DNA of 39,214 bases from a virus (taxonomy: Duplodnaviria; Caudoviricetes), in IMG/VR virus record IMGVR_UViG_3300027818_000001, positions 1 through 39,214 of that record; one strand, 5' to 3'. The notes beneath the pieces are model-generated. The model did no database searches and was not told the origin of the DNA. It was given only the letters and a program-made list of their open reading frames with translations. Positions 6,250-38,077 of this stretch are shown here, piece by piece (position 1 is the first letter of the stretch; every line of letters starts with the position of its first letter). Position numbers and translations under genes: made by a program.

Positions 6250-6420
6250 TCAAGTTTTTTCTTGGAATATTTTATAGAATTCATCCAATGACATTGCTTT
6301 TTGTGTTATTGGTTCATCTATTGATTTATTTAATTTTTTAAGACTTCTGCCATCAATATGCACTCTTGTTTTATTGCCATTTGGGAATACAAAACATAAC
6401 GGATATTTTTTATCTTTCAT
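6250..6420 (-). CDS. 56-aa hypothetical protein (not in the ORF track)
   Basis: GGAGGTG RBS; MKDKKYPLCFVFPNG...IFQEKT. Confidence 0.55.
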   Translation of the reverse strand: MKDKKYPLCFVFPNGNKTRVHIDGRSLKKLNKSIDEPITQKAMSLDEFYKIFQEKT

Positions 6421-6838
6421 TTTTCACCTCCCCTGATAACGTCGGCATTCCAGCACCCTTTATCCCGTTTCGAATCATATCAGATTCTCTCTGTTTCGGT
6501 GTATATTCTTTTGCTCTTTTTTCTAATGATTTTAATTTTTCCTCTTCTGTTTGCGGCGATTCCTTTTTTGCTTTCTTTGATTTTTCCTGCTCCGCCGCCT
6601 GTTGCTGCGCATACTGAATCAATGCTTCCAACTGCAACAACCGGTATTTATTATTTAAGATGACCTGCTCGTATTGGTTCAACCGCTCAATGATTTCATC
6701 TTTCTCTTTTTGGAATTGCGCCAGGTCAGCTTTGAAATCGCCTGCACGAATATGTATCCGAAAAGCAATCAAAGCCAAAATACCTAAAATCATTACAAAC
6801 ATTAACAGCTGAAATAACGTCATTCCTTCTTTGTTCAT
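6410..6838 (-). CDS. Membrane-anchored coiled-coil protein with prepilin-like N-terminus
   Basis: MNKEG|MTLFQLLMFVMILGILALIAF resembles the class III signal G|FTLIELL. Confidence 0.6.
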   Translation of the reverse strand: MNKEGMTLFQLLMFVMILGILALIAFRIHIRAGDFKADLAQFQKEKDEIIERLNQYEQVILNNKYRLLQLEALIQYAQQQAAEQEKSKKAKKESPQTEEEKLKSLEKRAKEYTPKQRESDMIRNGIKGAGMPTLSGEVKNER

Positions 6839-12287: not shown

Positions 12288-14480
12288 TTAAACAACCAAA
12301 TCAAACAAGTCTTTTTTATTAGCACAAGCAACGTCAAGATTCTTAATTGCCGTATTATAATATTCTTGTTTCAATTCAATCCCTATAAATTTACGATCAA
12401 GATTAATAGCTTCATAACCTTCGCTTCCAATACCCATAAACGGGGAAAATACAACCTCTTTTTTATTGCTCCAAAGCCGGATACATCGATTAATAACGTC
12501 CAACTGAAGCGGACACATATGCTTTTCGTCTTTATCTGTCCTCGCTTCTCGAAAATTAAGAGTATTTGTTTCCCGAATATCAGTCCATATCGGATGAGCA
12601 AGTTTTATCCATTCTTCATTGTTTAAGTCAGTATTGATTCTAACTTCGTTATCACCACGTTTGCGGAATACACAAATATAATCGGGGATTCCTTGCCTTG
12701 AATCACTACTGTCTTTATGTAATTGCTTAAACATCAAACCCTTTGCATGAGTTCTGATAGCTGCCGCTTGTGGGTTTTTCTGTATGCAGATTTCCGAATG
12801 ATATATAAAACCTTCCTTCTGAAATGCTCGTATAATATCACCTCTAAAATCTAATAACCCGATATAACCATGATTAACAAGTTTTGTCGGTAGATTCATA
12901 CAGTGAACAGCAATCAATCTGCCTTGTTTTATAACTCTCAATAATTCTTTAATGATGTATTTAAAATGCTCAAAGAACTCATCATTGTTTTGGCAGTTTC
13001 CTAAGTCGCGTTCAGACGGTGAATAAGTATATAGCGATGCAAACGGCGGCGAGAACACACTAAAATCAATAGAGTTTTCTTTCAAGTCTTTCATTACTTC
13101 GCATGAGTCGCCCAGATAAACTTCATAGTTTAGCGTTTTTGCTTTTTCCATTTTGTAAATCTCCTTTACGTGTGATGTAGGATTCAATTCATCTTTTTCA
13201 AAATCTTTTACATACTTAATGACATTATTAAAAGTATCCTGTGATGTTTTTTCTTTTCTCTTTACATTATCAAGTATTGCTGATTCCTCGCCTGCAAGCC
13301 ATATTTTTACATTAACAGGGTTTTTTTGACCGAATCTATAACAGCGCCGGATACATTGATAATAAGATTCATAACTATCCGACATTCCGAAAAAGTGCAT
13401 ATTATGGCAATTCTGAAAATTTAATCCGAACCCTGCTATTTTGCTTTTGGTTAATAAGACTCTTATTTTCCCTCTTTTAAATTCTTTTATCTTTCGTATC
13501 TTTTCTTCTTCGGTATCACTGCCTTGCAGGTTTTCTGAATCAGGTATGAGTTTATGCAATACCGTTGATTCTTCGTTTAATCCGCACCATACTATTGCCT
13601 GTTCATTGCTTTGGTTTATCTCATTTGCAATACGTTCTATTTTTGTTGATATGCTTTGCTTTCGTATGTTTAACCTATCCGTTATACCTTTTAATCCAGA
13701 ACTAAAAAGCTCATCATCTTTCTTATACTCAAAATCAAAATATTCTCCGGTAATATTTAATTCGGGGAGAATAAACCCATCATCTTTAAAACCTAAATCA
13801 GATGGATACTTTATAAACATAGCCCACGTTGACATCCACTTATAAAATGCTGTTATCGCATGACCTTTGATTTCCCAGCCAGTGCCTTTATTCTCACGAT
13901 TAACAAAATACTTTGATAGCATTTCTTCACGTTTCATGATTCCTAAAAACTCTGTATGATTGGCTATTTCTGATATGTCATTAGGTGCCGGCGTTGCGGT
14001 GCAGGCAAGCTTAAATTTTAAACCTTGCGATAATTCAATTAATTTTTTTCTTGTTTTACCGCTTACTGACTTGAGTATACTTGACTCATCGAGGACAATC
14101 CCGACATAATCATTGAAGTTAATATTATCAAGATTCTCATAATTACAGATTTTAATCTTAACATCGTCGTCAATGTCGTATCTGGATACTTTAATATCAA
14201 TCTTTTTTCCTTCGTCTATCGTCTGTTCATTTACCGATAATGGAGCGAAGATAATAATCTTCCCTTTGATTTCATTCACTATATTATTAGCCCATACAAG
14301 CTGTAAAAATGTTTTTCCCAAACCCGTATCAGCAAATATCGCACACCGTCCTTTTTTGCAAGCCCATCTGGTTATTGCTTTTTGAAAGTCAAATAGTTTG
14401 TCGGGAATAGTAATATTTTCAATTCCAACTGATGACCCATAATTTAATTTTGTGCTTAAAAAATCCTTGTAATTTCTCAT
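12288..14480 (-). CDS. SF2 (SNF2-like) helicase fused to a beta-class N4-C/N6-A DNA methyltransferase
   Basis: ADTGLGKT, LDESS, TATP, QCIRRCYRFGQ, then GDSCE, FSPPF, HMCP and SPFMGIGSEG. Confidence 0.88.
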   Translation of the reverse strand: MRNYKDFLSTKLNYGSSVGIENITIPDKLFDFQKAITRWACKKGRCAIFADTGLGKTFLQLVWANNIVNEIKGKIIIFAPLSVNEQTIDEGKKIDIKVSRYDIDDDVKIKICNYENLDNINFNDYVGIVLDESSILKSVSGKTRKKLIELSQGLKFKLACTATPAPNDISEIANHTEFLGIMKREEMLSKYFVNRENKGTGWEIKGHAITAFYKWMSTWAMFIKYPSDLGFKDDGFILPELNITGEYFDFEYKKDDELFSSGLKGITDRLNIRKQSISTKIERIANEINQSNEQAIVWCGLNEESTVLHKLIPDSENLQGSDTEEEKIRKIKEFKRGKIRVLLTKSKIAGFGLNFQNCHNMHFFGMSDSYESYYQCIRRCYRFGQKNPVNVKIWLAGEESAILDNVKRKEKTSQDTFNNVIKYVKDFEKDELNPTSHVKEIYKMEKAKTLNYEVYLGDSCEVMKDLKENSIDFSVFSPPFASLYTYSPSERDLGNCQNNDEFFEHFKYIIKELLRVIKQGRLIAVHCMNLPTKLVNHGYIGLLDFRGDIIRAFQKEGFIYHSEICIQKNPQAAAIRTHAKGLMFKQLHKDSSDSRQGIPDYICVFRKRGDNEVRINTDLNNEEWIKLAHPIWTDIRETNTLNFREARTDKDEKHMCPLQLDVINRCIRLWSNKKEVVFSPFMGIGSEGYEAINLDRKFIGIELKQEYYNTAIKNLDVACANKKDLFDLVV

Positions 14481-18070: not shown

Positions 18071-18099
18071 ATTATACCATACCTTATTTACAATGTCAA
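18071..18099 (-). promoter_or_regulatory. Consensus sigma70 promoter (probable major early promoter)
   Basis: TTGACA, 17 nt, TATAAT, with TG extended -10 and AT-rich upstream sequence. Confidence 0.88.
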
Positions 18100-18150: not shown

Positions 18151-18186
18151 AAATAAAAAAAGCGTGAAATTATTATTTTCACGCTT
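18151..18186 (-). terminator. Intrinsic terminator ending the late transcript
   Basis: AAGCGTGAAA/TTTCACGCTT stem followed by a T-run on the minus strand. Confidence 0.8.
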
Positions 18187-18238
18187 CCTTATTTATGCAG
18201 ATTTCATTAATTCAAAATAATTTATCTGCAAGCAATTA

Positions 18239-19249
18239 TTAATTATATTTAAGAATATTTATTTTTATGTGTTCTGCGATTGCTTGCATAAATTTTGGCA
18301 TTACTGAATTTCCTATTCTTGCCCACTGCTCTTCAAAGTTCCCTTTTAATTTAAAATTATCAGGATAAGAACTTAATCTTTTAATTTCCGTAATTGTTAA
18401 TTTTCTATTTTCAGAATAATGTATTAATCCATCTGAACTCGAACAATGATTAATTGTTTTTGTTATTGTCCATGAAGGTCTTAAATTATTTATTCTTCTT
18501 AAAGTAAATCCTGATCCATGCGGACTATATTTATCATAACATTCATCTTTTTTCATTTTACATATTCTCGGATAAATTACAGAATCTTTAATATGATTCA
18601 CCCATTTTAATTCCCAATCTTGATTCTTAATATTTTTTAATGCTTTTCCTGATGTAATTAAATTCTTATTCGGTATAGGAAATGAAGGTATAATATTTAA
18701 ATCTTTTCTTACTCCAATAAATATTAATCTTTGACGTGATTGAGGGACATTATAATATTTCGCATTCATTAATTTACATTTTACATTATAATTAATACTT
18801 TTTAATTTTATTAAAATTTCATTAAATTTTCCCTTATATGTTCCTTTTATCATTCCTGACACATTTTCCATAACAAATACTTTCGGTTTTAATTCGTTAA
18901 TTAATCGGACAAATTCCATAAATAAATCATTTCTTGAATCATTAAGATTTCTTTTTCCCGCTGTTGAAAATCCTTGACATGGCGGACTACCATCAAGTAA
19001 ATCAAGTTTATTTTCTTTTATATTACAAAAGTTCATTATTTCTTTCCCCGTTATTTTTATTATGTCTTTCTGCCAGCAAGGAATATCAGGAAAATTTAAT
19101 TTAAAAGTTTCAACTGCATTTTCATCAAAATCAATAGCAAGTAATTCTTTATATCCTGCCCATTTATACCCTAATGAACTACCGCCGCAACCGCAGAATA
19201 AAGATATTATTGTGGGGTTACCATTTATATCCGCATTTCGGACATTCAT
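18239..19249 (-). CDS. DNA (cytosine-5) methyltransferase
   Basis: SLFCGCGG, GSPPCQGFS, ENV, PQSRQR, IGNSV; start position uncertain. Confidence 0.93.
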   Translation of the reverse strand: MNVRNADINGNPTIISLFCGCGGSSLGYKWAGYKELLAIDFDENAVETFKLNFPDIPCWQKDIIKITGKEIMNFCNIKENKLDLLDGSPPCQGFSTAGKRNLNDSRNDLFMEFVRLINELKPKVFVMENVSGMIKGTYKGKFNEILIKLKSINYNVKCKLMNAKYYNVPQSRQRLIFIGVRKDLNIIPSFPIPNKNLITSGKALKNIKNQDWELKWVNHIKDSVIYPRICKMKKDECYDKYSPHGSGFTLRRINNLRPSWTITKTINHCSSSDGLIHYSENRKLTITEIKRLSSYPDNFKLKGNFEEQWARIGNSVMPKFMQAIAEHIKINILKYN

Positions 19250-19691
19250 TTTTTGTTTCAAGTAAATCAATTTCTTTTTCATTCGGTTCTTCAATTCCTG
19301 TTATTATAGTCATTTCTGATAAATCAAACCCAATATCTTTCAATAAATCCTCGTCGATATTCGCCAGCATATTAAAATCAAACTCGCCAGAATTTTTATT
19401 TAATCTGATGTTTAACTCCTGCTCTTTTTTAATATCAGGAATATTAACATAGACAACAGGCAATTCTTTCAATCCTAATTCAGAAGCAACCTTATGCCTC
19501 ATGTGTCCGCCGATGATAATATTTTTTCTTTTTGATGCTGAATTTACGATGATAGGGTCGGGAAATCCGAATCTCTTGATAGATTCTTTTAAATCGTCGA
19601 GTTGTTTTTGAGATGCTTTGCGGGGATTGTAGTCGCTTGGAATTAATTTCTCTATCGGCACATATACAATTTTATGGATTTTATCAATCAT
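19218..19691 (-). CDS. ParB/Sulfiredoxin-N domain protein with C-terminal CPKC
   Basis: YNPR, SIKRFGF.DPIIVN, IIGGH.R, LNIRLN. Confidence 0.85.
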   Translation of the reverse strand: MIDKIHKIVYVPIEKLIPSDYNPRKASQKQLDDLKESIKRFGFPDPIIVNSASKRKNIIIGGHMRHKVASELGLKELPVVYVNIPDIKKEQELNIRLNKNSGEFDFNMLANIDEDLLKDIGFDLSEMTIITGIEEPNEKEIDLLETKNECPKCGYKW

Positions 19692-20169: not shown

Positions 20170-20430
20170 TTATTTTTTTGCAACTTTCGCTATTGCTGCC
20201 CGTCCAGTTATCAATGCCAATGCTTCAAGTATTTTCTGGATTAAAGCGGCATTATCATTATCGCCAGCCCATTGAATAAGCGCACCGATTATCATGCCTA
20301 TTGCAACCAGATAAAGCTTTTTCCCAGATAAAAACAATCTTATTTTTTCAAACATAGGTTTCCCTCCTTTCCAATAATCAAATATATAAGTCAAAACAAT
20401 TTTAATCAAAATCTTTTTAATCCATTTCAT
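20170..20430 (-). CDS. Putative holin with two possible starts
   Basis: LSGKKLYLVAIGMIIGALI...LALITGRAAIAK; internal AGGAGG RBS before ATG 20355. Confidence 0.7.
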   Translation of the reverse strand: MKWIKKILIKIVLTYIFDYWKGGKPMFEKIRLFLSGKKLYLVAIGMIIGALIQWAGDNDNAALIQKILEALALITGRAAIAKVAKK

Positions 20431-20945
20431 TTTATTATATCCCAGATTTCAAACCAACCGCCTAAATCATCAGTCCCTTTTACAATACTGTTTGTTTCAG
20501 CCCGTCTATTTTCTGCCCATGCTTCTTCGTTGTAATCCAGCAGTAAGGGACGGCATTCGCCATAAGAAATAGTCTTAATTCTTGATGAGGAAATGCCGCA
20601 CGATTCAAAAACTTCTTTAACCGCCTGCGCTCTTTTTTCACCAAGTATCTGATTATATTCTTCCGTTCCCCGTTCGTCGCAATGCCCTTCAATCCTGATG
20701 TTAAGCTGCGGATATTTTTTGAGCAGATAAACATTGTGCTCAATAGCTTGCTGCATATCAGGACGGATTTCATAGCGGTCAAAATCAAAGTTAACGGTAA
20801 GAAATCCAAAAATTTCCTTATCCGTATCAATCTCTTTGATTACAACTGGTTCAATCGGGATATGTTTTTCCGGCACGATGACCGCCCGTTTTGCACATCC
20901 TGCAAATAATGCCGCAAGAAATAAAACAAATAAAATCTTTTTCAT
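20427..20945 (-). CDS. pal: Pal-like peptidoglycan-associated lipoprotein (OmpA C-terminal domain)
   Basis: Lipobox FAG|C; FDFDR, IEGHCDERGTEEYN..LGEKRA, ISYGE.RP, NRRA. Confidence 0.88.
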   Translation of the reverse strand: MKKILFVLFLAALFAGCAKRAVIVPEKHIPIEPVVIKEIDTDKEIFGFLTVNFDFDRYEIRPDMQQAIEHNVYLLKKYPQLNIRIEGHCDERGTEEYNQILGEKRAQAVKEVFESCGISSSRIKTISYGECRPLLLDYNEEAWAENRRAETNSIVKGTDDLGGWFEIWDIIK

Positions 20946-20953
20946 CTTCTCTG

Positions 20954-20974
20954 CCCCCCCCCCCTCTTTTTTTT
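20954..20974. repeat. C11 and T8 homopolymer tracts (A8-GA-G11 on the coding strand) at the Pal RBS
   Basis: Read directly: C at 20954-20964, T at 20967-20974. Confidence 0.85.
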
Positions 20975-20978
20975 ATTA

Positions 20979-21317
20979 TCATCCTTCAAAATGTCCATAA
21001 TCTTTAGTTCCGTCTGCAAATATAATCAATGCTTTCCCGCCAAGCTGCTGCCACCGTTCATGCCATTTGATTGATTTTTGTTCATTCCAAACAAACTGTA
21101 TTGTACCGTTGATGTCACTCAAATAAATATCAACCGCACATCCTGATTGATGTTTTGATAATTTATTAATTCCGTCGCATTGTGTTTTTTTTCTCAAGTA
21201 TAAATAAACCTGATCCATTGTTCCGCGCAATGCGTAATCAATAACAGGATTCTCGCCAGCTGTAATCATTTCAGAAAGTAACTGCGTTATGTTTTTAGTA
21301 AACTCTTGTCGTGTCAT
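20979..21317 (-). CDS. Endolysin, peptidase M15 / L-Ala-D-Glu peptidase-like
   Basis: R...Q..LY, SKHQSGCAVD, D.GHFE zinc-peptidase pattern. Confidence 0.8.
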   Translation of the reverse strand: MTRQEFTKNITQLLSEMITAGENPVIDYALRGTMDQVYLYLRKKTQCDGINKLSKHQSGCAVDIYLSDINGTIQFVWNEQKSIKWHERWQQLGGKALIIFADGTKDYGHFEG

Positions 21318-21468
21318 TTATTTTTTCTTTTTCCTTTTTATCGGGAATGCAATGCGAACAGATATGCGCCACCGCCTGCCCGTGAAAGTACACCAATCCA
21401 CAATCTTTTTCAAGATTTTCGTAATCAAACCAATATCCGCAAAGTTTACACTGCTTCCATTCGGGCAT
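21295..21468 (-). CDS. 57-aa Zn-finger protein (not in the ORF track)
   Basis: MPEWKQCKLC...ICSHC; GAGGGTGG RBS. Confidence 0.55.
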   Translation of the reverse strand: MPEWKQCKLCGYWFDYENLEKDCGLVYFHGQAVAHICSHCIPDKKEKEKINDTTRVY

Positions 21469-21480
21469 TAACCACCCTCG

Positions 21481-21864
21481 TTACTGTGCCCCGACTTTCT
21501 GCCAGCTTCTAAAATCAACCGCCGCCGTTGCTGTATGTACCACATATTGAGCGGTACGCCCCCACAATCCCGCGCGGGATGGTGTTGTTCCTGTATCAAC
21601 GTATGGCACAAGGAAATCGCCGGTTACAAATAGATTGACCGCTTCAACTGTTCCTGTTGAATATATCCGCACGAATGAAGTGCAATCAGCGATTAGCGGA
21701 TCAGTGGATGTGCTGTTATAAACAAAGAACATATTACCCCGATAATTCCACTGTACTTTATGGGTTGTTGTGTCTGCGTCGACAGAATACCACTGAACAC
21801 TATAAAAATCAGCATGAGCAAATGATGCAAGAAATAACAATAACGGCAATAATAATTTTTTCAT
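21481..21864 (-). CDS. Exported beta-rich protein
   Basis: Signal peptide MKKLLLPLLLFLASFAHA|D; GAGG RBS. Confidence 0.7.
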   Translation of the reverse strand: MKKLLLPLLLFLASFAHADFYSVQWYSVDADTTTHKVQWNYRGNMFFVYNSTSTDPLIADCTSFVRIYSTGTVEAVNLFVTGDFLVPYVDTGTTPSRAGLWGRTAQYVVHTATAAVDFRSWQKVGAQ

Positions 21865-28840: not shown

Positions 28841-29053
28841 TTAATTACCCCCTTTTATATTTTCTTTTTTTACGTCTATGATTATCCCCTGCTCAATCAA
28901 TGATTCTTTTATATTTGTAATTGCATGAGATTCACCGTTAATGAACCCATTAGTAAACCCCCTGCGATATTCGAATCTGCCGCCTATCATATAAAACCCA
29001 AACATCCCGATTATAAACACGATTGTAATTATTATCACTTCTTTTAATTTCAT
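28841..29053 (-). CDS. Small membrane protein
   Basis: N-terminal TM segment, then YRRGFTNGFING. Confidence 0.6.
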   Translation of the reverse strand: MKLKEVIIITIVFIIGMFGFYMIGGRFEYRRGFTNGFINGESHAITNIKESLIEQGIIIDVKKENIKGGN

Positions 29054-29055
29054 TA

Positions 29056-29409
29056 TTATTTATTCCCTGTTTTTAAAAATACTATTATGGTTATAATCCC
29101 GCCGACAATAGCTATCAAATGAGGCAGCGTCGCTAACAATGAAATGTAAACGGTATTCCTAAATGACGATTGACGGATAGTGTCCATTTCATCACGGTTC
29201 GCTTTTGATTCAAGCAGGATACGGTTTTCCATAGTGTCTTTTGAATGAGCTTCACATTTCATGTCAATACCTTTCCGCCATTCGTTCATGGTAATTCTTA
29301 ATTCAGCGACATCATTCCGAATACCGTCCATTTTATCCATGACAAACGACATCTGCACGTCTTGCAGTCTGTGCGCAGGTGTTTTTTCTAATTGATCTTG
29401 TGTGCTCAT
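29056..29409 (-). CDS. Coiled-coil protein with C-terminal transmembrane segment
   Basis: Heptad-like middle; hydrophobic ISLLATLPHLIAIVGGIITIIVFL. Confidence 0.6.
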   Translation of the reverse strand: MSTQDQLEKTPAHRLQDVQMSFVMDKMDGIRNDVAELRITMNEWRKGIDMKCEAHSKDTMENRILLESKANRDEMDTIRQSSFRNTVYISLLATLPHLIAIVGGIITIIVFLKTGNK

Positions 29410-29419
29410 AAATATCCTT

Positions 29420-30466
29420 TTACTCAAGAATTAATATTTGTGACGCGCCTTTTGATGCGGCTGGCGGCGCTGCCGCCGCATATTCATCTGCGCTTATATC
29501 CCAAGTCGCTCCCTCTGCATCTCCATCAATATCTACATCGTACGGGCTTCCCGCATCTGTTCCATGATCAATACAATCCGCTCCAACTTTTAAATGAAAA
29601 TTTTCACTGCCTCCGGTTAAACTTGTAAATTGACTTGAAGATGTTTTTTCAACTTGGTTGTTGCTTCCCGGAGCAGCTGCGCTGTCTGTCGCGTTATACC
29701 CCGAACCAGCACCCCATGATTCAGTATCGCTGCCGAAATTGTATGGACAATCGAATACTGCATTATTAATCACACGCGATTCACTTCCCGTACCGCTTCT
29801 GTCTCTAATCCCGTATGAGTAATCTGCGCCATAACCGACAATAGTATTGTTTACAATATAAGTATTAGCATCCCCGCTGAACATAAGAATCCCGCCAGCC
29901 CAATCCCTCGCGCAATGCCATATTATATTTCGGTAAATCAATTCACCCGAACTAACACGGGATATGCCGCAGGTATATGCGCTTCCATGCCCGTCAATCA
30001 GATTGTACCGATATGTATTATGGTCGCTTGAGTTTGAGTGCCCAATCCCGTTACTCTCGGCAGATGTTCCTTTCGGGTATATTTGCAAATACTCTATAAC
30101 CGTGTAATGGTCATCAACCGTAATCACTGTCCCGTCTGAAGTAGGCACAATCCGTGATTTTGAATCACTCCATACACCCGCGTGCCGGTCAGATGCCGGC
30201 ACGGTGATTTTCATGTATTTATCGGATGCTGTCGTTGAACCGTCAATCACAACCCGGTCATCAAGCGCGCCGTCCTCGACATACAATTCAGCGGTTTCTA
30301 CCTCTCCTAATACGCCGTCTTTGGCATCTTCCCATAGAGTTAGAGTATTATAATTCTCTCCTGTTTTATTCACCGTTGAAACAGCGGCAAATATCGCATT
30401 ATTTATCAGTATAAAAACTGATAGGAGAATCAGTAATCTTGTCCTTAATATCCTCTGCAATCTCAT
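29420..30466 (-). CDS. Exported right-handed beta-helix (pectin-lyase-fold) protein
   Basis: Signal LLILLSVFILINNAIFA|A; YRYNLI, IYRNII, IVNNTI, VINNAV rungs; FHL...CID.G...DIDG...WDI.ADEY tail. Confidence 0.72.
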   Translation of the reverse strand: MRLQRILRTRLLILLSVFILINNAIFAAVSTVNKTGENYNTLTLWEDAKDGVLGEVETAELYVEDGALDDRVVIDGSTTASDKYMKITVPASDRHAGVWSDSKSRIVPTSDGTVITVDDHYTVIEYLQIYPKGTSAESNGIGHSNSSDHNTYRYNLIDGHGSAYTCGISRVSSGELIYRNIIWHCARDWAGGILMFSGDANTYIVNNTIVGYGADYSYGIRDRSGTGSESRVINNAVFDCPYNFGSDTESWGAGSGYNATDSAAAPGSNNQVEKTSSSQFTSLTGGSENFHLKVGADCIDHGTDAGSPYDVDIDGDAEGATWDISADEYAAAAPPAASKGASQILILE

Positions 30467-30857
30467 CTTTAGTAAACTCTCCTTTTTTAGATTCTTCTTT
30501 TAATGCGTCTTTTTCGTCTATGCTTATTAAGTCAATACCGTGTCTTCTGTATTTCAGTATGGGCTGCTTGCCATAAATATTTACTTCGCCTCTTATTGTG
30601 TCTTTTAACTGCAGTCTGTCGAGTTCACTCATCCCGCTGATTTTTATAATCTTGTACAGTTTTTTTTCATCTTTAGTCGGCACATATTGCGGGGTGCAAG
30701 GCACGATTTCTACTATATCACCCGTATCAGACATCCCCGCGACTTGCTCTGCGTTTTTATAATCCTTGATTTTAGTTTCTTTCCGGATATAAACCCAGTA
30801 ATCCTGCGCTGATAATGAACTGCTAAATAACAAAATAAGAAATAATAATTTTTTCAT
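30399..30857 (-). CDS. Exported hypothetical protein
   Basis: Signal peptide MKKLLFLILLFSSSLSA|Q. Confidence 0.7.
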   Translation of the reverse strand: MKKLLFLILLFSSSLSAQDYWVYIRKETKIKDYKNAEQVAGMSDTGDIVEIVPCTPQYVPTKDEKKLYKIIKISGMSELDRLQLKDTIRGEVNIYGKQPILKYRRHGIDLISIDEKDALKEESKKGEFTKDEIAEDIKDKITDSPISFYTDK

Positions 30858-31168
30858 TTTCTTTTTTCCTTGTTTAAATCGAAATAAGGTCTAAGAATTT
30901 TTCTTATATCAATTTTTAATAAATCAACAATATCATTTATTAATTCATCGTCAATTTTCTTACTTGTTTCTTTTGCTATTCCTTCAAATCTATTATTTTC
31001 TAATCTTTTTATTTTTTCCTTTATAATCGCCATTTCGTATCGGTTGCATTTTATATCAGCATTCATCAAATTGTGTTCAATATCATTCATAGCATTATAA
31101 TGAGCAATTCGTTGTCTTGTCGAAACACACGCAGGTAATAAAAATATACATAGTAATAGTTTTTTCAA
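30854..31168 (-). CDS. Putative lipoprotein
   Basis: MKKLLLCIFLLPA|C lipobox; helical, K-rich body. Confidence 0.6.
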   Translation of the reverse strand: MKKLLLCIFLLPACVSTRQRIAHYNAMNDIEHNLMNADIKCNRYEMAIIKEKIKRLENNRFEGIAKETSKKIDDELINDIVDLLKIDIRKILRPYFDLNKEKRK

Positions 31169-31491
31169 TCTACTGCCTCAATTTTGTACCCGACTGTCTT
31201 TTCATCGATAATTTCTTTAGTAACTTTTTTTGTTATTGGTATTACCTCATACTCCTGCAATTTACTAGTTTTAAAATCGTAACTGTAAATTTTGTCAGGA
31301 TTAGAAAATTCCCATTGCTTACCCATCGTTAAATCTATTTTCTTATTGATAAATTTTGTTAATTCTTTTTCTGAATTAAAAATCTCAATATGTTCAACAA
31401 CCCCTTTAGGATTAAAATTATTTATATTAGTATCAAAAGTCATTATTGGTAAATAACCCGAAACCCAAATACAAATAAAAATTATTTTCAT
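31165..31491 (-). CDS. Hypothetical protein with hydrophobic N-terminus
   Basis: TAATG coupling to the fibre stop supports the start at 31491 (MKIIFICIWV). Confidence 0.55.
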   Translation of the reverse strand: MKIIFICIWVSGYLPIMTFDTNINNFNPKGVVEHIEIFNSEKELTKFINKKIDLTMGKQWEFSNPDKIYSYDFKTSKLQEYEVIPITKKVTKEIIDEKTVGYKIEAVD

Positions 31492-34400
31492 TAATCCCTC
31501 GTATAACTCCCATAAATCATCAATGATGTAATATTTCCCGTCCATGACGTTGGCACTAAAAATAATCCATAATTTGCGGGTACTGTTGCATCTGCGAAAG
31601 TACCGCCGCGCCATTCTGTTGCGGGAACAGTAATGTCACCGCTCCAAATATCTGTACCAGCGGCATTGGGAGATGCTTTTGCTCGTTGCTCGAGCATACA
31701 TACAAATGTCGTGCCGTCATTGCATATCGCAGTCATTGTCGTCCAGGTCACGGCATACGATAAAAATTTTGATATTTGATACCCTTCACCAGCAGTTAAA
31801 TGGTTCGGCGATGAAATACAAACGCCGAAATCTTCTACACCAAGTGCATCATAAATATCATCTTTTTCTGGCACACCGGTATCACTATTCCAGCCCGAAC
31901 CAAAAGTCTCATTTACTCCAACCAATATTTTGTTTGATAAATTATCGTAGTTAGTTAGATAACCCGATGTCGCCGCCGCTAAGTCTGCGAGAGCAATCGT
32001 TCCATCAGTAATCTCGCCTGTAACAACTGCTTTATTACTTATATTCGCCCAATTTGTGAACCAGCCTGTTGTTGCGGCAGTCATATCCCCCGCAACTATT
32101 GTCCCGTCTTTTATGTCAGCGCTTACAATCACTGAATCAGCAAGACTGCCTTCTGTTACCTTCGGCTCGTATGAAGGCACTTCTGTCAAATTAGCCCATG
32201 CTGTAAGCCACCCTGTCGTTGCCGCTGCTAAGTCAGCCAGCGCGATAGTTGCGTCTTTAATATCTGCACTCACGATAACAGAATCAGCAAGTGAACCTTC
32301 CGTAACAGTCGCTTGTTTCCCGTTAATCTGGTCTTGAGCATTACTCGATAATGTCGCGATATATTTTAATTCTGCATCTGATACAGAAGCGTTAGAAGCA
32401 TAAGTCGCCCCAGCAACATTCCCTGTTGCGCTAAAATTGCCTGCACTATAAAATTTGAAAGTCTCTACATCTGCAGTACCTAAAGTAAACAGAGTGCCAG
32501 ACGACTTTAACATCCAATACTCTTCCGTATCATCATAATCCTCTGAATTATAAAGTTTTATTGTCGGGCAACCTTTCGCATTATCACCGTATAAAGTTAA
32601 TCCTCCATCCGTTGTATCGTCAACACCTAATGACATTGTTAACATCCCGCTCGTTGCAAAATCATATACTTGGTCGCAGTTCGGGATATGCGTTACATCC
32701 CCGTTTGTCGGTGTCGCTGTTGAAATACAAATTAACGCTGTGCCTTCTGGACTCTCTTCACCATTAAAACCATTTCTTAAATTAATACTAACGGTCGGAC
32801 TTGTTATCTCAACGCCGTCAATAGCAACCTGTAAGGTCGATGCTCCGCCGCCGCCTACCCCTTCATTATCTATTCCGTCGGCAAATCCTGCTGGGACATT
32901 AGCAAAATTCGCCCAATTAACAAACCAACCAGTCGTAGCCGCTGTCATATCTGCGGTCGTTATCGTAGCGTCTTTAATGTCGGCACTTATAATCGTAGAA
33001 TCAGCGAGTTTGCCTTCTGCGATATTTAAGTCTTGAGCGCCTAAATACAAAGGCACATTAACTGTCATGGATGATGGTGTAATTTCAGCTTGTCTTGTTC
33101 CGTAAGTTCCCGCTGCTGAGAAAACTGTATTGTAACTTTTGAGTGTTAAAATGGCGGTCGGGGCACCTAAATTTACAAAAAGTTGGTCTTGGTCACTATC
33201 AAATACATTCAAACCCCCGGCTAAGATTCTAACGTAATCAGTTGCTGGAAAAGTATATCCGGTGTTTGTGTCATCTCCATTACTATTGTAATAATTTAAA
33301 GCATTTACAGCACCACCAAATTTTGCTGTACTTAGTACCTCCAACTCACCTTCTACTCCCAAATCTCCTACGCCGTCAAGTGTTGCAAATCCTGCTGTTG
33401 ACGCACCTACGACAACACCAGAACCATCAGTAACTATAAACTCTCCTGTGCTTGTTAAACCAGAAGAAAGAGTCATAGGCACATTAACCGTCATGGATGA
33501 ACCTGTACTCTCAAACACTTTCGTATTGTTTGAATACCATCTACTTGTTATACCTTCACCTGTGATGTAGTTGTTAGTGCCTGGAATATACAAATTTCCA
33601 TCTATTTCAGCATCACCAGCCACATACAAATCCCCTGAACCTGTTACATAGGTTGGCGTTCCAGAACCTACATAAACAGCATTGTTTGCCATAACTCTTA
33701 ACCCCGACCGAGAATTTAACGAACTATTAATATTATAAATGGCTATATCGCCATCAGCAACATAATTCTTTATATTCAAAGATTGATTTTTATCATTAAC
33801 TCCTACGTTATATAGAGAATTTGTCTGAGCTATTACACCCGAAGTAACACCATTTTCTTGAAAAACAATAGAATTATACTCATTAGTGGGAGTTGCATTC
33901 AGGACAAGATATGTAGAAGAATGATCTGAAACTATATCTAAACGCTTTGTAATATAAGATTGATCTCCATGAACTTCTAACATATCTCCAACAAACAAAT
34001 CACCACTACCATTTATATAAGTTGGCGTTCCTGTTCCTAAATGCAAAGGCACACTAATAATCGCGGATGATTCTGAAATCTCTGCTTGTATATCCCCGTC
34101 ATTCGCAGGGTCGAAACGGATAAATGTACCGTTTGTGTCTATGTAATCTGAACTAACATAAGTAGTAGCCCCTGCTGATAATTCATTTAAAAAATATGTG
34201 CTATCAATACCGTCGAATAAATCCGAGTCAGCCGCCTTGCCTGCAATCCCCAAATATGTAGTGGATAGTGCGCTAATTTCGTTTATTGTGAGGGTCAGAG
34301 GGGTATAACTGCTTAATCCAGCAGAAGTCGCAAAATAGGCGGCATTATGCCCCTGTAGCGCGCCTGCATTGGTCGCATAGGTAGCTGTTGATGTCACGGA

Positions 34401-34751
34401 TGTCGCCGATATGTTTCCAGCTCCCGTTATATCAAACCCGCCCATTATTAATGTCGTTGTCGCTATGTGATTGCCGAGATTGTCAGCTCCCCCTGCCGCC
34501 GCCGCTGTTAAATCATAAATAGTGCCATCACTATTAATGAATTTGATTTTTTTATCAGTATCAAGATAAGTATATCCTTTGCCTGCCGCCGGAATACCAG
34601 GCGGACTCATTGTTGAATAAATAACGCTATACTTAAATGACGGGCTTGATACATTCGTTATATAATCATCTTCATTGATGTTATAAACTATAGCCCATGA
34701 AGTTTGAGTTAATAAGATAAGCAGTAATGCTTTACTGATAATGTATCGCAA
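31491..34751 (-). CDS. Large fibre-like repeat protein with signal peptide (about 1,086 aa)
   Basis: GGAAGGGGG RBS before TTG 34751; MRYIISKALLLILLTQTSWA|I; DNLGNHIAT, AADSDLFDGIDS, ADSxIxSADIKDxTI repeats, LSSNAQDQINGKQ. Confidence 0.75.
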   Translation of the reverse strand: MRYIISKALLLILLTQTSWAIVYNINEDDYITNVSSPSFKYSVIYSTMSPPGIPAAGKGYTYLDTDKKIKFINSDGTIYDLTAAAAGGADNLGNHIATTTLIMGGFDITGAGNISATSVTSTATYATNAGALQGHNAAYFATSAGLSSYTPLTLTINEISALSTTYLGIAGKAADSDLFDGIDSTYFLNELSAGATTYVSSDYIDTNGTFIRFDPANDGDIQAEISESSAIISVPLHLGTGTPTYINGSGDLFVGDMLEVHGDQSYITKRLDIVSDHSSTYLVLNATPTNEYNSIVFQENGVTSGVIAQTNSLYNVGVNDKNQSLNIKNYVADGDIAIYNINSSLNSRSGLRVMANNAVYVGSGTPTYVTGSGDLYVAGDAEIDGNLYIPGTNNYITGEGITSRWYSNNTKVFESTGSSMTVNVPMTLSSGLTSTGEFIVTDGSGVVVGASTAGFATLDGVGDLGVEGELEVLSTAKFGGAVNALNYYNSNGDDTNTGYTFPATDYVRILAGGLNVFDSDQDQLFVNLGAPTAILTLKSYNTVFSAAGTYGTRQAEITPSSMTVNVPLYLGAQDLNIAEGKLADSTIISADIKDATITTADMTAATTGWFVNWANFANVPAGFADGIDNEGVGGGGASTLQVAIDGVEITSPTVSINLRNGFNGEESPEGTALICISTATPTNGDVTHIPNCDQVYDFATSGMLTMSLGVDDTTDGGLTLYGDNAKGCPTIKLYNSEDYDDTEEYWMLKSSGTLFTLGTADVETFKFYSAGNFSATGNVAGATYASNASVSDAELKYIATLSSNAQDQINGKQATVTEGSLADSVIVSADIKDATIALADLAAATTGWLTAWANLTEVPSYEPKVTEGSLADSVIVSADIKDGTIVAGDMTAATTGWFTNWANISNKAVVTGEITDGTIALADLAAATSGYLTNYDNLSNKILVGVNETFGSGWNSDTGVPEKDDIYDALGVEDFGVCISSPNHLTAGEGYQISKFLSYAVTWTTMTAICNDGTTFVCMLEQRAKASPNAAGTDIWSGDITVPATEWRGGTFADATVPANYGLFLVPTSWTGNITSLMIYGSYTRD

Positions 34752-35484
34752 CTGTACCCCCTTCCCCTGCTTCAACGCTTCCCACGGATTTTATTATTAT
34801 CCCAAAATTCTCAGTCGCCGTATAAATTATATCGGTTATATCTGTAACCTGATTACGCTGTCCAGCAATAAGCGTCGCAACCCGTGATTGTTCAACATTA
34901 TCTTTCAGTAAATCAATGGTTATGTTCGCGCCTGTCGGTGCGGTATCAAGATGTAACCCTATCTTTTTAATTGTTATCGCCGCAGGGAAATAAAATCCGT
35001 TGAATATGATTTTTTCATCAATAAATGTCCCGAATGCCGGTATAGTCAAAACTTTATTTAACACGTCAATATACCCCCTTGATACTTCGATATATTTAAA
35101 ATCTATTATCGCCACATGATGAAAAACATTGAGAGCAGGGTCTTTGAAACAACTGCCGCCAACACATTTTGACGTTAATACGCGGTAATCTGTTGATGTA
35201 ATTAAATTCTGCGCTTCATCCTGCCTGTCTAATAAATAAGAAATCCGGTCCCGTATCGTTTTCGATAAACTTACGCTGTCATCAATACAATTAAAAGCTA
35301 TTGATATTTCGCTGATATTCTCTTCATTCGACCCGAAAGCATTGGTATTAAATATAATGTACGGTGTTACCGCTCCATGCGGCGACTGCTCTGGGTATAT
35401 CTTGCTATTCGTCGGCACGGCATTAAGCAACGCGGAAAGCGTATCATCATTTTTAAGGTATGCAATCACGTCCGTTTCAATCAT
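34732..35484 (-). CDS. Tail terminator (DUF3168-like) with extra C-terminal beta-sandwich domain
   Basis: IE..V.AYL..D..L..L, KIYP...P...PYI; follows the gp10-like gene; about 115-aa extension. Confidence 0.72.
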   Translation of the reverse strand: MIETDVIAYLKNDDTLSALLNAVPTNSKIYPEQSPHGAVTPYIIFNTNAFGSNEENISEISIAFNCIDDSVSLSKTIRDRISYLLDRQDEAQNLITSTDYRVLTSKCVGGSCFKDPALNVFHHVAIIDFKYIEVSRGYIDVLNKVLTIPAFGTFIDEKIIFNGFYFPAAITIKKIGLHLDTAPTGANITIDLLKDNVEQSRVATLIAGQRNQVTDITDIIYTATENFGIIIKSVGSVEAGEGGTVAIHYQ

Positions 35485-36768: not shown

Positions 36769-37365
36769 TTACGGTTGTAATTGTTCGTAAAAATCCGCGT
36801 ATATCCCTATATCCGCCGCTGTTTGAGCTGTAACATTACGGACAGCGATGAGATACAAAGATTCTGCGCCGACATATTCAGCGCCGTCTTTGAATGCCTT
36901 GTCAGAATTAAAACTTTGAGCATTAGCGGGTATGAAGATTGTCGGCGATATTTGTGTCCCAACCGTCGTTACCGTCGGTGTATGGTACATTATCGCTGTT
37001 GCAGTATCAGCTATTTTTTGATTGAGATTATACGAAGGAACTACTGTCCCGCTTGATGTAATAACAGGGGTCCGGTAGATATTCATAACAACCGGCTGGT
37101 CTGATACTATCGTCAATGTCGCATGGATTTCGTCCGCCGTAAATGCCGTTGTTGCTACATCAACCATAAAATACGCTGTTGCACCAGCCTCGACATTATC
37201 ATATAAATGCCCTGTGCGAAAAATTTGCCCGAGATGCACTTTTGTATGAGCATCCGTTATCATGCCTATTGACCGTGCAGGTTTTGCCGGTACTTGCCCG
37301 CCGAATGAATTTACTGCTGATAATCCCGTAATAAAAACAGCTAATACTAAAAACTTTCTGAACAT
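36769..37365 (-). CDS. Beta-rich protein with signal peptide in the head-neck region
   Basis: MFRKFLVLAVFITGLSAVNSFG|G; H..VH.G..F motif; GAGGGGG RBS. Confidence 0.7.
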   Translation of the reverse strand: MFRKFLVLAVFITGLSAVNSFGGQVPAKPARSIGMITDAHTKVHLGQIFRTGHLYDNVEAGATAYFMVDVATTAFTADEIHATLTIVSDQPVVMNIYRTPVITSSGTVVPSYNLNQKIADTATAIMYHTPTVTTVGTQISPTIFIPANAQSFNSDKAFKDGAEYVGAESLYLIAVRNVTAQTAADIGIYADFYEQLQP

Positions 37366-37467: not shown

Positions 37468-37860
37468 TTATCGGTAAAATATCGTTACTCTTACCGTACT
37501 GCCTGTTGACGATTTCCGCACACACAAATCTTCAAGCTTCAAATAATCCGAGTGTATCGGAAATTGTATCTGCACAATCCCCGGCGAATACGTTAACGTT
37601 GAAACATCTACCGCAAATGCTGTCGTAATCGTGGTCGTTGAATCAGCATTCTCGTAAAACGTAACTGTCTGCAATACTTCTGGCAGACTGTTCGAGATAA
37701 TGATTTTCTCAATCCTCGCCACACCTGATATTTGCGCGCTTGTCGCGCCTACTTCCGTAACTGCGTAAGTCGTCGCCGCCACATAGTACGGTATTACACC
37801 ATCAGCAAACCCTAACATCGGCAATAAAATTATTGCCATAATACTTATTAATTTACGCAT
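37468..37860 (-). CDS. 130-aa beta-sandwich-like protein with signal peptide, at the decoration-protein position
   Basis: AAGGGAGGAG RBS before ATG 37860; MRKLISIMAIILLPMLGFA|D. Confidence 0.72.
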   Translation of the reverse strand: MRKLISIMAIILLPMLGFADGVIPYYVAATTYAVTEVGATSAQISGVARIEKIIISNSLPEVLQTVTFYENADSTTTITTAFAVDVSTLTYSPGIVQIQFPIHSDYLKLEDLCVRKSSTGSTVRVTIFYR

Positions 37861-38077
37861 ACTTTCTCCTCCCTTTTTTGTATTGTTTATTCGGACTCCT
37901 ATCAGTAGAATTAACTTCTTTGCTCTCGATAGTCTCGATAGTCTCGATAGTCTCGATAGTCTTAATAGGTTCAATTAAGTGAGCATATCGCCGAGCTTCG
38001 GCATCAGTAAATTCCCTGATTTCACCCTTTGCGAAAGTAAGATAGCCGCCGAAAGCTTTTTTAATTTCGCACTTCAT
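37853..38077 (-). CDS. Small capsid-adjacent protein
   Basis: TAATG-coupled to the capsid stop; F.KGEI.E....A..Y motif; IET repeats. Confidence 0.7.
   Translation of the reverse strand: MKCEIKKAFGGYLTFAKGEIREFTDAEARRYAHLIEPIKTIETIETIETIESKEVNSTDRSPNKQYKKGRRKYA
37924..37968. repeat. 9-bp tandem repeat (TCTCGATAG)x4 plus one degenerate copy
   Basis: Read directly; encodes IKT-IET-IET-IET-IES. Confidence 0.9.

What the first reader, a model, noticed from the sequence alone, without database searches (positions are those of the whole stretch)
20427..20945. Phage-encoded Pal lipoprotein between endolysin and holin
Seen: lipobox plus intact Pal motifs (EGHCDERGT.EYN..LGE.RA) and an added amphipathic tail (GTDDLGGWFEIWDIIK); its stop overlaps the holin start. 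I see no Rz/Rz1 spanin pair in the cassette. Established: Pal tethers the outer membrane to peptidoglycan and binds TolB, and phages of diderm hosts need an outer-membrane disruption step. Inference: this copy may be a Tol-Pal decoy or spanin substitute, or may hold the envelope together to delay lysis. It also indicates a diderm host.
Basis: partly seen in the sequence, partly recalled or inferred. Interest (0 to 1): 0.75.

Follow-up and report, generated by a model that had tools for sequence, protein, structure and literature searches.

The report
Captured Pal inside phage lysis genes
A complete uncultured phage carries an intact copy of the bacterial outer-membrane anchor Pal between its endolysin and a likely holin; the related phages checked lack it and other phages carry Pal in other places, so it is likely a captured, late-acting envelope reinforcer and not a replacement for spanins.

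Summary
Observation confirmed. 20427-20945 (-) is a 172-aa Pal lipoprotein (TIGR02802 124.6 bits, cut-off 125.35; 29 of 32 invariant Pal columns kept). It lies between an L-Ala-D-Glu peptidase endolysin and a two-TM holin-like gene in a complete 39-kb tailed phage. The 17-aa tail is real and ends on the holin ATG.

Pal is not a fixed part of this cassette: 0 of 43 related phage records encode an OmpA domain, and one relative has a RusA gene in the same slot. Pal was captured by phages at least three times; 31 IMG/VR stretches hold the strict motif, beside packaging, tail, replication or small unknown genes, and 0 of 37 records checked have tolB. No holin or spanin family was found beside 51 viral OmpA/Pal genes (weak test).

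Spanin substitution is unlikely: the tail is acidic with no TM segment. Most likely it is a late envelope moron adding outer-membrane-to-wall tethers until the endolysin cuts them (inferred). Two new leads: the genome's only long G run lies in pal's ribosome site, and the tail may couple pal to a long holin form. This scan noted OmpA lipoproteins in two other lysis cassettes. Interest 0.42.

The parts
20427..20945 (-). Pal lipoprotein, 172 aa: signal peptide 1-16, Cys17, Pro-rich linker, OmpA_C domain about 51-151, unique tail about 156-172
20427..20477 (-). 17-codon C-terminal extension whose TGA overlaps the first ATG of the holin-like gene (ATGA)
   Evidence: motif found only in the window's own copies among 262 loci
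20954..20964 (-). G11 homopolymer in the ribosome-binding region of pal; the only G/C run of 7 or more in the genome
20979..21317 (-). M15-type endolysin (predicted L-alanyl-D-glutamate peptidase), 112 aa, no signal peptide; ends in three tandem stops in frame with pal
   Evidence: PF13539 E 2.4e-4; invariant R31, Q36, H56, D63, D106, H109 in 54 relatives; family profile hits 2VO9 at E 7.7e-11
20170..20430 (-). Holin-like gene, two predicted TM segments, two possible starts: 86 aa (ATG at 20430, no clear SD, cationic 25-aa extension) and 61 aa (ATG at 20355, SD AAGGAGG)
   Evidence: similar proteins beside the same endolysin family in L260 and L262 (45% and 37%); nearest ESM Atlas clusters are small phage proteins, score 0.90
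21295..21468 (-). 57-aa Cys-rich small gene overlapping the endolysin start
   Evidence: a similar Cys-rich gene precedes the endolysin in L152
21481..21864 (-). 127-aa protein with a signal-peptide-like N-terminus, beta-rich, no family
18156..18190 (-). Terminator-like hairpin that likely ends the late transcription unit holding the cassette; a 12/12 sigma-70 promoter-like site follows at 18099
   Evidence: consensus scan only
30854..31168 (-). Second candidate lipoprotein (104 aa, LPAC, Cys14), a possible o-spanin-like gene outside the cassette
   Evidence: no family

Best explanation
The gene encodes an intact Pal lipoprotein taken from a bacterium and inserted between the endolysin and a likely holin, where it is predicted to be made late in infection and likely adds outer-membrane-to-cell-wall tethers that keep the infected cell's envelope intact until the endolysin cuts the wall. 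Shown: identity, intact motifs, position, absence from the relatives checked, repeated capture of pal without tolB by unrelated phages. Inferred: (1) late expression, from its place in the tail-lysis transcription unit; (2) lipidation at Cys17 and outer-membrane sorting (Ala at +2; the Asp rule is recalled); (3) binding of the mDAP stem peptide through D90/R92; (4) release at lysis, because an L-Ala-D-Glu peptidase cuts the mDAP-bearing peptide off the glycan and so frees every Pal tether; (5) the tail is a run-on to the holin's upstream ATG that gives translational coupling, not a membrane-fusion element.
For: Intact core: 29 of 32 columns conserved in at least 90% of 179 cellular Pals are kept, although the best cellular match is only 57% identical over the core. 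Not a fixed cassette part: 0 Pal hits in 30 loci of the same endolysin family and in 42 loci sharing the tail protein; 0 of 43 of those whole records have PF00691, 10 of them at least 90% complete. L151 has a RusA-like gene between the homologous endolysin and a holin with the same KWIK..I.KI start. Pal is a mobile phage accessory: 31 IMG/VR stretches, 25 distinct cores, next to terminase, portal/protease, neck, DNA polymerase, MazG or kdsA/kdsB-like genes; 0 of 37 records have tolB; two starred viral clades nest in different Pseudomonadota groups and the window's copy is in neither. Extra Pal rescues lpp mutants and Pal binds mDAP via Asp71/Arg73 (PMC7391070 passages). The endolysin family matches L-alanyl-D-glutamate peptidase 2VO9. 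In L151 both holin starts have an SD; here the upstream start has none and sits on pal's stop.
Against: No functional or expression data. The gene does sit inside a lysis cassette, and this scan noted OmpA-type lipoproteins in two other cassettes (e1-3466339, e1-5343981, unchecked), so a lysis-specific role may recur. Some relatives of the endolysin carry another lipoprotein after the holin (L236/L245, L249, L247), so Pal may fill a lipoprotein slot. Cell-wall hydrolase domains lie within two genes of 3 of 51 viral OmpA/Pal genes. The neighbour test is weak for holins, since the window's own holin has no family hit. A100I occurs in 0 of 179 cellular Pals. A tether working against lysis looks odd in a lysis operon. 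Most comparison records are fragments.
Confidence: 0.45

Rival explanations
1. Tol-Pal decoy: late overproduction titrates host TolB, stalls Tol-Pal and weakens the outer membrane before lysis, or blocks Tol-dependent entry.
For: The SYGE region and core loops are intact. TolB is present at about 10% of Pal levels, so it could be titrated (PMC7391070 passage). Phages take pal without tolB.
Against: Extra Pal stabilises lpp mutants. The host's Pal already exceeds TolB. Nothing here shows loss of wall binding, which a pure decoy might favour: D90, R92 and R105 are intact.
Confidence: 0.15
2. Lysis helper: Pal holds wall fragments on the outer membrane or presents stem peptides to the small endolysin, which lacks its own wall-binding domain.
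For: The endolysin is a bare 112-aa catalytic domain acting on the peptide that Pal binds. Stand-alone wall-binding SH3 genes occur in T1-like lysis cassettes (PMC13164509 abstract). Two other cassettes with OmpA lipoproteins were noted by this scan.
Against: 30 loci with the same bare endolysin family have no Pal nearby. Other viral Pals lie far from recognisable lysis genes; 0 of 16 Pal/OmpA-bearing records checked have this endolysin family.
Confidence: 0.13
3. Receptor masking or superinfection exclusion by an outer-membrane lipoprotein, as for Cor or T5 Llp (recalled).
For: Phage lipoproteins and OMPs act this way; it is proposed for phage OmpA-type OMPs (bioRxiv 10.64898/2026.10.24.761521, Discussion). 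The unique Trp-rich tail could be a binding motif, and the G11 tract could vary expression.
Against: No integrase was found in the 55 ORFs scanned, so lysogenic exclusion is unlikely. The domain keeps wall-binding residues. The tail is not shared by any other Pal examined.
Confidence: 0.1
4. Neutral passenger: pal landed in a tolerant slot and is drifting.
For: Singleton; long terminal branch of 0.59-0.71; the slot holds an unrelated RusA gene in L151; another viral pal (L313) appears split into two ORFs.
Against: Open frame, lipobox and 29 of 32 invariant residues are kept despite divergence. GC3 of 0.35 lies within the range of the phage's genes. Repeated independent captures suggest a benefit.
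Confidence: 0.1
5. Spanin substitute: the lipid anchor holds the outer membrane and the tail inserts into the inner membrane, fusing the two like a u-spanin.
For: Only strict-scan lipoprotein on the coding strand, placed between endolysin and holin. Lone lipoproteins without an i-spanin occur in 31 genomes (PMC6139136 section 15). Relatives have lipoproteins in the cassette.
Against: No C-terminal TM segment, and the tail is acidic; u-spanins need a C-terminal TMD and are beta-rich; the fold is a compact alpha/beta OmpA_C domain. Other candidates exist: lipoprotein 30854-31168 with nearby membrane genes, and the cationic holin extension.
Confidence: 0.07

Closest known systems
Pal of Tol-Pal (TIGR02802; E. 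coli 1OAP/2HQS; H. influenzae P6 2AIZ)
   Same: Lipobox, linker, OmpA_C domain and wall-binding residues; 38-61% identity to cellular Pals.
   Different: Phage-encoded, no tolB or cpoB beside it, 17-aa tail, A100I, 0.75 bits under the equivalog cut-off.
Phage-encoded OmpA-domain proteins (PHROG 7897; Cellulophaga phi17:2 R9ZWT8; Lak phage OmpA)
   Same: OmpA_C domain on a phage gene; envelope-directed accessory genes (bioRxiv 10.64898/2026.10.24.761521).
   Different: Those hits are 327-483 aa or beta-barrel OMPs. The preprint's main text has 0 whole-word uses of Pal, lipoprotein or spanin; its supplements were not seen.
u-spanin T1 gp11 and two-component spanins Rz/Rz1
   Same: Outer-membrane lipoprotein gene in a lysis cassette.
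   Different: No C-terminal TMD, no adjacent i-spanin, globular wall-binding fold.
Stand-alone SH3 gene in Drexlerviridae lysis cassettes (PMC13164509)
   Same: Non-universal wall-binding accessory gene in a lysis module.
   Different: Different fold; here lipid-anchored and absent from all relatives checked.
Disruptin gp28 of phiKT (bioRxiv 10.1101/515445)
   Same: Spanin-free cassette with an amphipathic peptide element.
   Different: gp28 is a 56-aa cationic peptide; the Pal tail is acidic. The holin's 25-aa extension (+4) is closer in character.

Membership tests
Pal (TIGR02802) | Signal peptide II with lipobox Cys | tested here: met
   LFAGC, Cys17, TM-like 6-24; LPAM_1 18.2 bits, cut-off 20
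Pal (TIGR02802) | OmpA_C domain and fold | tested here: met
   PF00691 E 1.3e-18; 1OAP E 2.1e-24; AF2 core blocks pLDDT 81-97
Pal (TIGR02802) | mDAP-binding Asp and Arg | tested here: met
   D90 and R92 by motif position against Asp71/Arg73; binding itself not measured
Pal (TIGR02802) | Score above the curated cut-off | tested here: inconclusive
   124.6 against 125.35 bits; best of 40 families by 10 orders of magnitude
Pal (TIGR02802) | tolB-pal-cpoB operon context | tested here: not met
   No Tol gene among 55 ORFs scanned
Pal (TIGR02802) | Binds TolB and peptidoglycan | not tested
   No complex prediction was run; needs a bench assay
u-spanin | N-terminal lipobox | tested here: met
u-spanin | C-terminal transmembrane domain | tested here: not met
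   Only hydrophobic segment is 6-24; tail charge -2
u-spanin | Complements lambda RzRz1 | not testable with these tools
   bench test
o-spanin (two-component) | Adjacent, overlapping or embedding i-spanin (N-terminal TM plus coiled coil) | tested here: not met
   None in 19.7-22.1 kb; type II candidates only at 28841-29053 and 6410-6838
Disruptin | Small cationic amphipathic peptide | tested here: not met
   Tail is acidic and fused to a 155-aa lipoprotein
M15 L-Ala-D-Glu peptidase endolysin (upstream gene) | SxH, AxD, DxxH zinc and catalytic motif | tested here: met
Holin (downstream gene) | Small multi-TM protein linked to an endolysin | tested here: met
Holin (downstream gene) | Match to a named holin family | tested here: inconclusive
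   No Pfam or PHROG hit; Atlas holin clusters score only 0.81-0.82

The most novel reading that the evidence does not exclude
A switchable lysis brake: phage Pal clamps the outer membrane to the wall and, through the ATGA overlap made by its tail, drives the long cationic (antiholin-like) form of the holin; the L-Ala-D-Glu endolysin then releases all clamps at once. Slippage of the G11 tract tunes pal translation, and so lysis timing, between phage lineages. Pal would be a recurrent, undescribed class of envelope-stabilising phage late gene.
Probability: 0.12. Interest if true: 0.75.

Novelty: new variant of a known kind. Interest (0 to 1): 0.42.

Why it matters
Lysis is usually described as breaking three envelope layers. 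A host envelope tether captured repeatedly by phages, here placed inside a lysis cassette, suggests that phages also reinforce the envelope or time its release. About 13% of phages in one survey have no recognisable spanin (PMC6139136), so a cheap test in E. coli (lambda RzRz1 and pal/lpp complementation) would show whether Pal belongs among lysis accessories. As it stands the cassette arrangement is a singleton and the function is inferred.

Tried and rejected
Single-protein scans of viral contigs with Pal, endolysin and holin found no true relatives; the holin has no homolog in the protein search. The 54-sequence endolysin alignment could not be used for a locus scan, so a DNA motif was used. 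INPHARED phages: 8 of 50,697 records hit; 4 are annotated pal or yfiB on contigs that look like host DNA and 4 are unannotated. The major capsid protein has no close cultured relative (about 25%). Donor lineage: the quick tree grouped the protein with Latescibacterota-like Pals (SH-aLRT 91), the careful tree loosely with Zixiibacteriota-like Pals (81/71); unresolved. The GTDB sample covered only 2 of 64 parts. Cluster look-ups gave no host name for endolysin relatives. No RNA holder listed. G11 length variation could not be tested: only contigs were laid, and no other run covers the tract. RNA folds at the two junctions were not striking (z -1.84 and -0.79). ESM Atlas gave no usable hit for the 127-aa protein. 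No Pal-TolB complex was predicted, because a pass would follow from solved structures. Endolysin-Pal read-through was rejected: three tandem stops. Assembly artefact was rejected for the tail/holin junction. Literature: 10 searches found no paper describing a phage-encoded Pal or Pal in a lysis cassette; the library lacks most subscription papers. PMC12698836 and PMC8705779 mention only host Pal or OmpA-like proteins (passages). Conservation of D90/R105 among viral Pals is not used as evidence, because the search motif required those residues.

Full report
Setting. The window is a whole virus record with direct terminal repeats, rated 100% complete (127-bp repeat). The main genes all lie on the minus strand. 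Pfam and PHROG scans of 55 ORFs give terminase, portal, protease, capsid, neck and tail genes, replication genes and two DNA methylases, and no integrase. After the tail genes come a 127-aa protein with a signal-peptide-like start, a 57-aa Cys-rich gene, the endolysin, pal, the holin-like gene, a 163-aa unknown, a ParB-domain gene and a C5 methylase. A terminator-like hairpin follows at 18156-18190 and a 12/12 promoter-like site at 18099. Late expression of pal is inferred from this layout.

The protein. 20427-20945 is 172 aa with a lipobox at Cys17 and an OmpA_C domain. TIGR02802 Pal scores 124.6 bits against a cut-off of 125.35. The 120 best listed hits are Pal-type proteins at 38-61% identity, those with names being cellular Pals, and the protein is a singleton cluster. 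It keeps 29 of 32 columns conserved in at least 90% of 179 cellular Pals; the differences are L68I, A100I and L113F, and A100I is in none of the 179. D90 and R92 correspond by motif to the mDAP-binding Asp71/Arg73 of H. influenzae Pal (PMC7391070, passages). AlphaFold gives a confident Pal core and an unreliable tail (last two blocks pLDDT 50 and 39).

The tail. 24 residues follow NRR, against a median of 7 in 78 cellular and at most 14 in 38 viral sequences; one cellular sequence has 26. It is acidic, weakly amphipathic and not a TM segment. Its motif occurs only in the window's own copies among 262 fetched loci. Contigs of three other runs cross the tail/holin junction without differences, so it is not an assembly error.

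The neighbours. The endolysin is only a weak Pfam M15_4 hit, but 54 aligned relatives keep R31, Q36, H56, D63, D106 and H109, and their profile hits the L-alanyl-D-glutamate peptidase 2VO9 at E 7.7e-11. The downstream gene has two TM segments and no family hit. Similar proteins (37-45%) lie beside the same endolysin family in L260 and L262. It has two starts: the ATG on pal's stop, without a clear SD, and an ATG 25 codons on with AAGGAGG. The holin of relative L151 has the same KWIK..I.KI extension and an SD before each start. I infer that the tail arose as a run-on to the upstream start and couples its translation; an antiholin role for the long form is by analogy with lambda S107 (recalled).

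Is Pal part of this cassette in relatives? No, as far as tested. A motif scan gave 30 viral loci of the endolysin family, with no Pal hit within 3.5 kb. 42 loci sharing the 537-aa tail protein have none either, though only 18 extend more than 3 kb downstream. Whole-record search of all 30 endolysin records and 13 of the 42 tail records found PF00691 in 0 of 43, 10 of them at least 90% complete. Two metagenome relatives lack it: L151 has a RusA-like gene between endolysin and holin, and in L152 a tail gene follows. Against my reading, L236/L245, L249 and L247 carry a different small lipoprotein after the endolysin or holin, so Pal could be filling a lipoprotein slot.

Pal in other phages. The strict Pal motif occurs in 31 IMG/VR stretches, 25 distinct cores; a looser OmpA_C motif in about 340, estimated from 23 of 64 parts. 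A few are host flanks (L015 with a CpoB-type gene, L011 with HU/IHF). None of 37 records checked has tolB. For 51 distinct small OmpA/Pal genes from loci L003-L109, 173 same-strand neighbours within two genes gave no holin or spanin family and a wall-hydrolase domain in 3 loci; most small genes had no hit, so this is a weak test for holins. Other neighbours are terminase subunits, portal and protease, neck, DNA polymerase and MazG genes. In a careful tree of 59 cores, two starred viral clades nest in different Pseudomonadota groups and the window's copy is in neither; its own place is unresolved (quick tree). That gives at least three captures. BFVD holds only longer OmpA-domain phage proteins at E under 0.001 (5 hits).

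Spanins. A six-frame lipobox scan of 1,164 starts gave Pal as the only coding-strand hit. A relaxed scan adds 30854-31168 (LPAC, with an SD), about 2 kb from a 70-aa N-terminal-TM gene and a 123-aa C-terminal-TM gene. Pal fails the u-spanin and o-spanin definitions (PMC6139136, passages and section 15) and its tail fails the disruptin profile (10.1101/515445, passages).

An unexpected feature. The only G/C run of 7 or more in the genome is G11 at 20954-20964, in the 33-nt gap before pal. An ATG overlapping the endolysin stop lies 37 nt upstream of pal's ATG and opens a 43-aa out-of-frame ORF, so the run length sets whether that coupled start is in frame with pal. Variation was not observed; only contigs were available.

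Mechanism. Pal binds mDAP or TolB, and extra Pal rescues lpp mutants (PMC7391070). The simplest reading is a late envelope moron that adds tethers while virions assemble, in line with the envelope-maintenance role proposed for other phage accessory genes (10.64898/2026.10.24.761521, abstract, passages and Discussion; supplements not seen). The endolysin's cut between L-Ala and D-Glu would detach the peptide that Pal holds, so the tether need not block lysis. I give this 0.45; decoy 0.15, lysis helper 0.13, exclusion 0.10, passenger 0.10, spanin substitute 0.07.

Novelty. Phage OmpA-domain proteins are known. Ten searches found no paper on phage Pal or Pal in a lysis cassette. This scan has unchecked notes of OmpA lipoproteins in two other cassettes and of a lipid-free phage Pal. 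Verdict: real, a new variant of a known kind, function inferred; interest 0.42.

Noticed in passing
window 20946-20982: G11 run, unique in the genome, in pal's ribosome site, with an out-of-frame ATG on the endolysin stop 37 nt upstream of pal; possible slippage switch.
   Followed up: partly
window 20356-20430; L151 5830-5900: Cationic amphipathic 25-aa extension (KWIK..I.KI) ahead of a second, strong start in two holins with different bodies; a possible antiholin or disruptin-like module.
   Followed up: partly
window 28841-31168: Cluster in the neck/tail region: 104-aa candidate lipoprotein, 152-aa and 348-aa proteins with signal-like starts, 123-aa C-terminal-TM protein, 70-aa N-terminal-TM protein; possible separated spanin-like genes. 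No family hits.
   Followed up: partly
window 37468-37974, 36769-37365, 31491-34775, 30399-30857, 29420-30466, 21481-21864: At least six genes in the head-tail operon begin with signal-peptide-like sequences, unusual for virion genes.
   Followed up: no
window 6410-6838: 142-aa type II membrane protein whose start resembles a prepilin N-terminus (recalled motif), followed by a likely coiled coil.
   Followed up: no
L236/L245 and L249, after the holin: Pair of a 114-129-aa helical lipoprotein and a 54-57-aa hydrophobic protein after the holin in relatives of the endolysin; no family hits; candidate unrecognised spanin-like pair.
   Followed up: partly
L328, L324, L332, L072, L316, L058: Pal or OmpA lipoprotein genes inside packaging, head or tail regions of small phages (between portal and protease, in the neck/tail block, beside terminase, after a long putative tail gene).
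   Followed up: partly
L030, L037, L044, L049 and about 20 more loci: A common phage family of about 600 aa with an N-terminal hydrophobic segment and a C-terminal OmpA_C domain, many on large contigs.
   Followed up: no
L050, L067, L087, L089, L092, L100: Porin gene next to a secreted OmpA_C gene in viral contigs; L100 also has CsgF and CsgG.
   Followed up: no
L003, L007, L008, L012, L025, L312: Phage Pal clade with a signal peptide but no lipobox Cys; kdsA/kdsB-like or Hydrolase_2 neighbours.
   Followed up: partly
L313 2853-3369: A viral pal that appears split into a lipoprotein N-terminal ORF and a separate OmpA_C ORF.
   Followed up: no
window 18239-19691: Low-GC (27%) C5 methylase and a ParB-domain gene at the end of the late operon; a helicase-methylase fusion lies at 12288-14480.
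   Followed up: no
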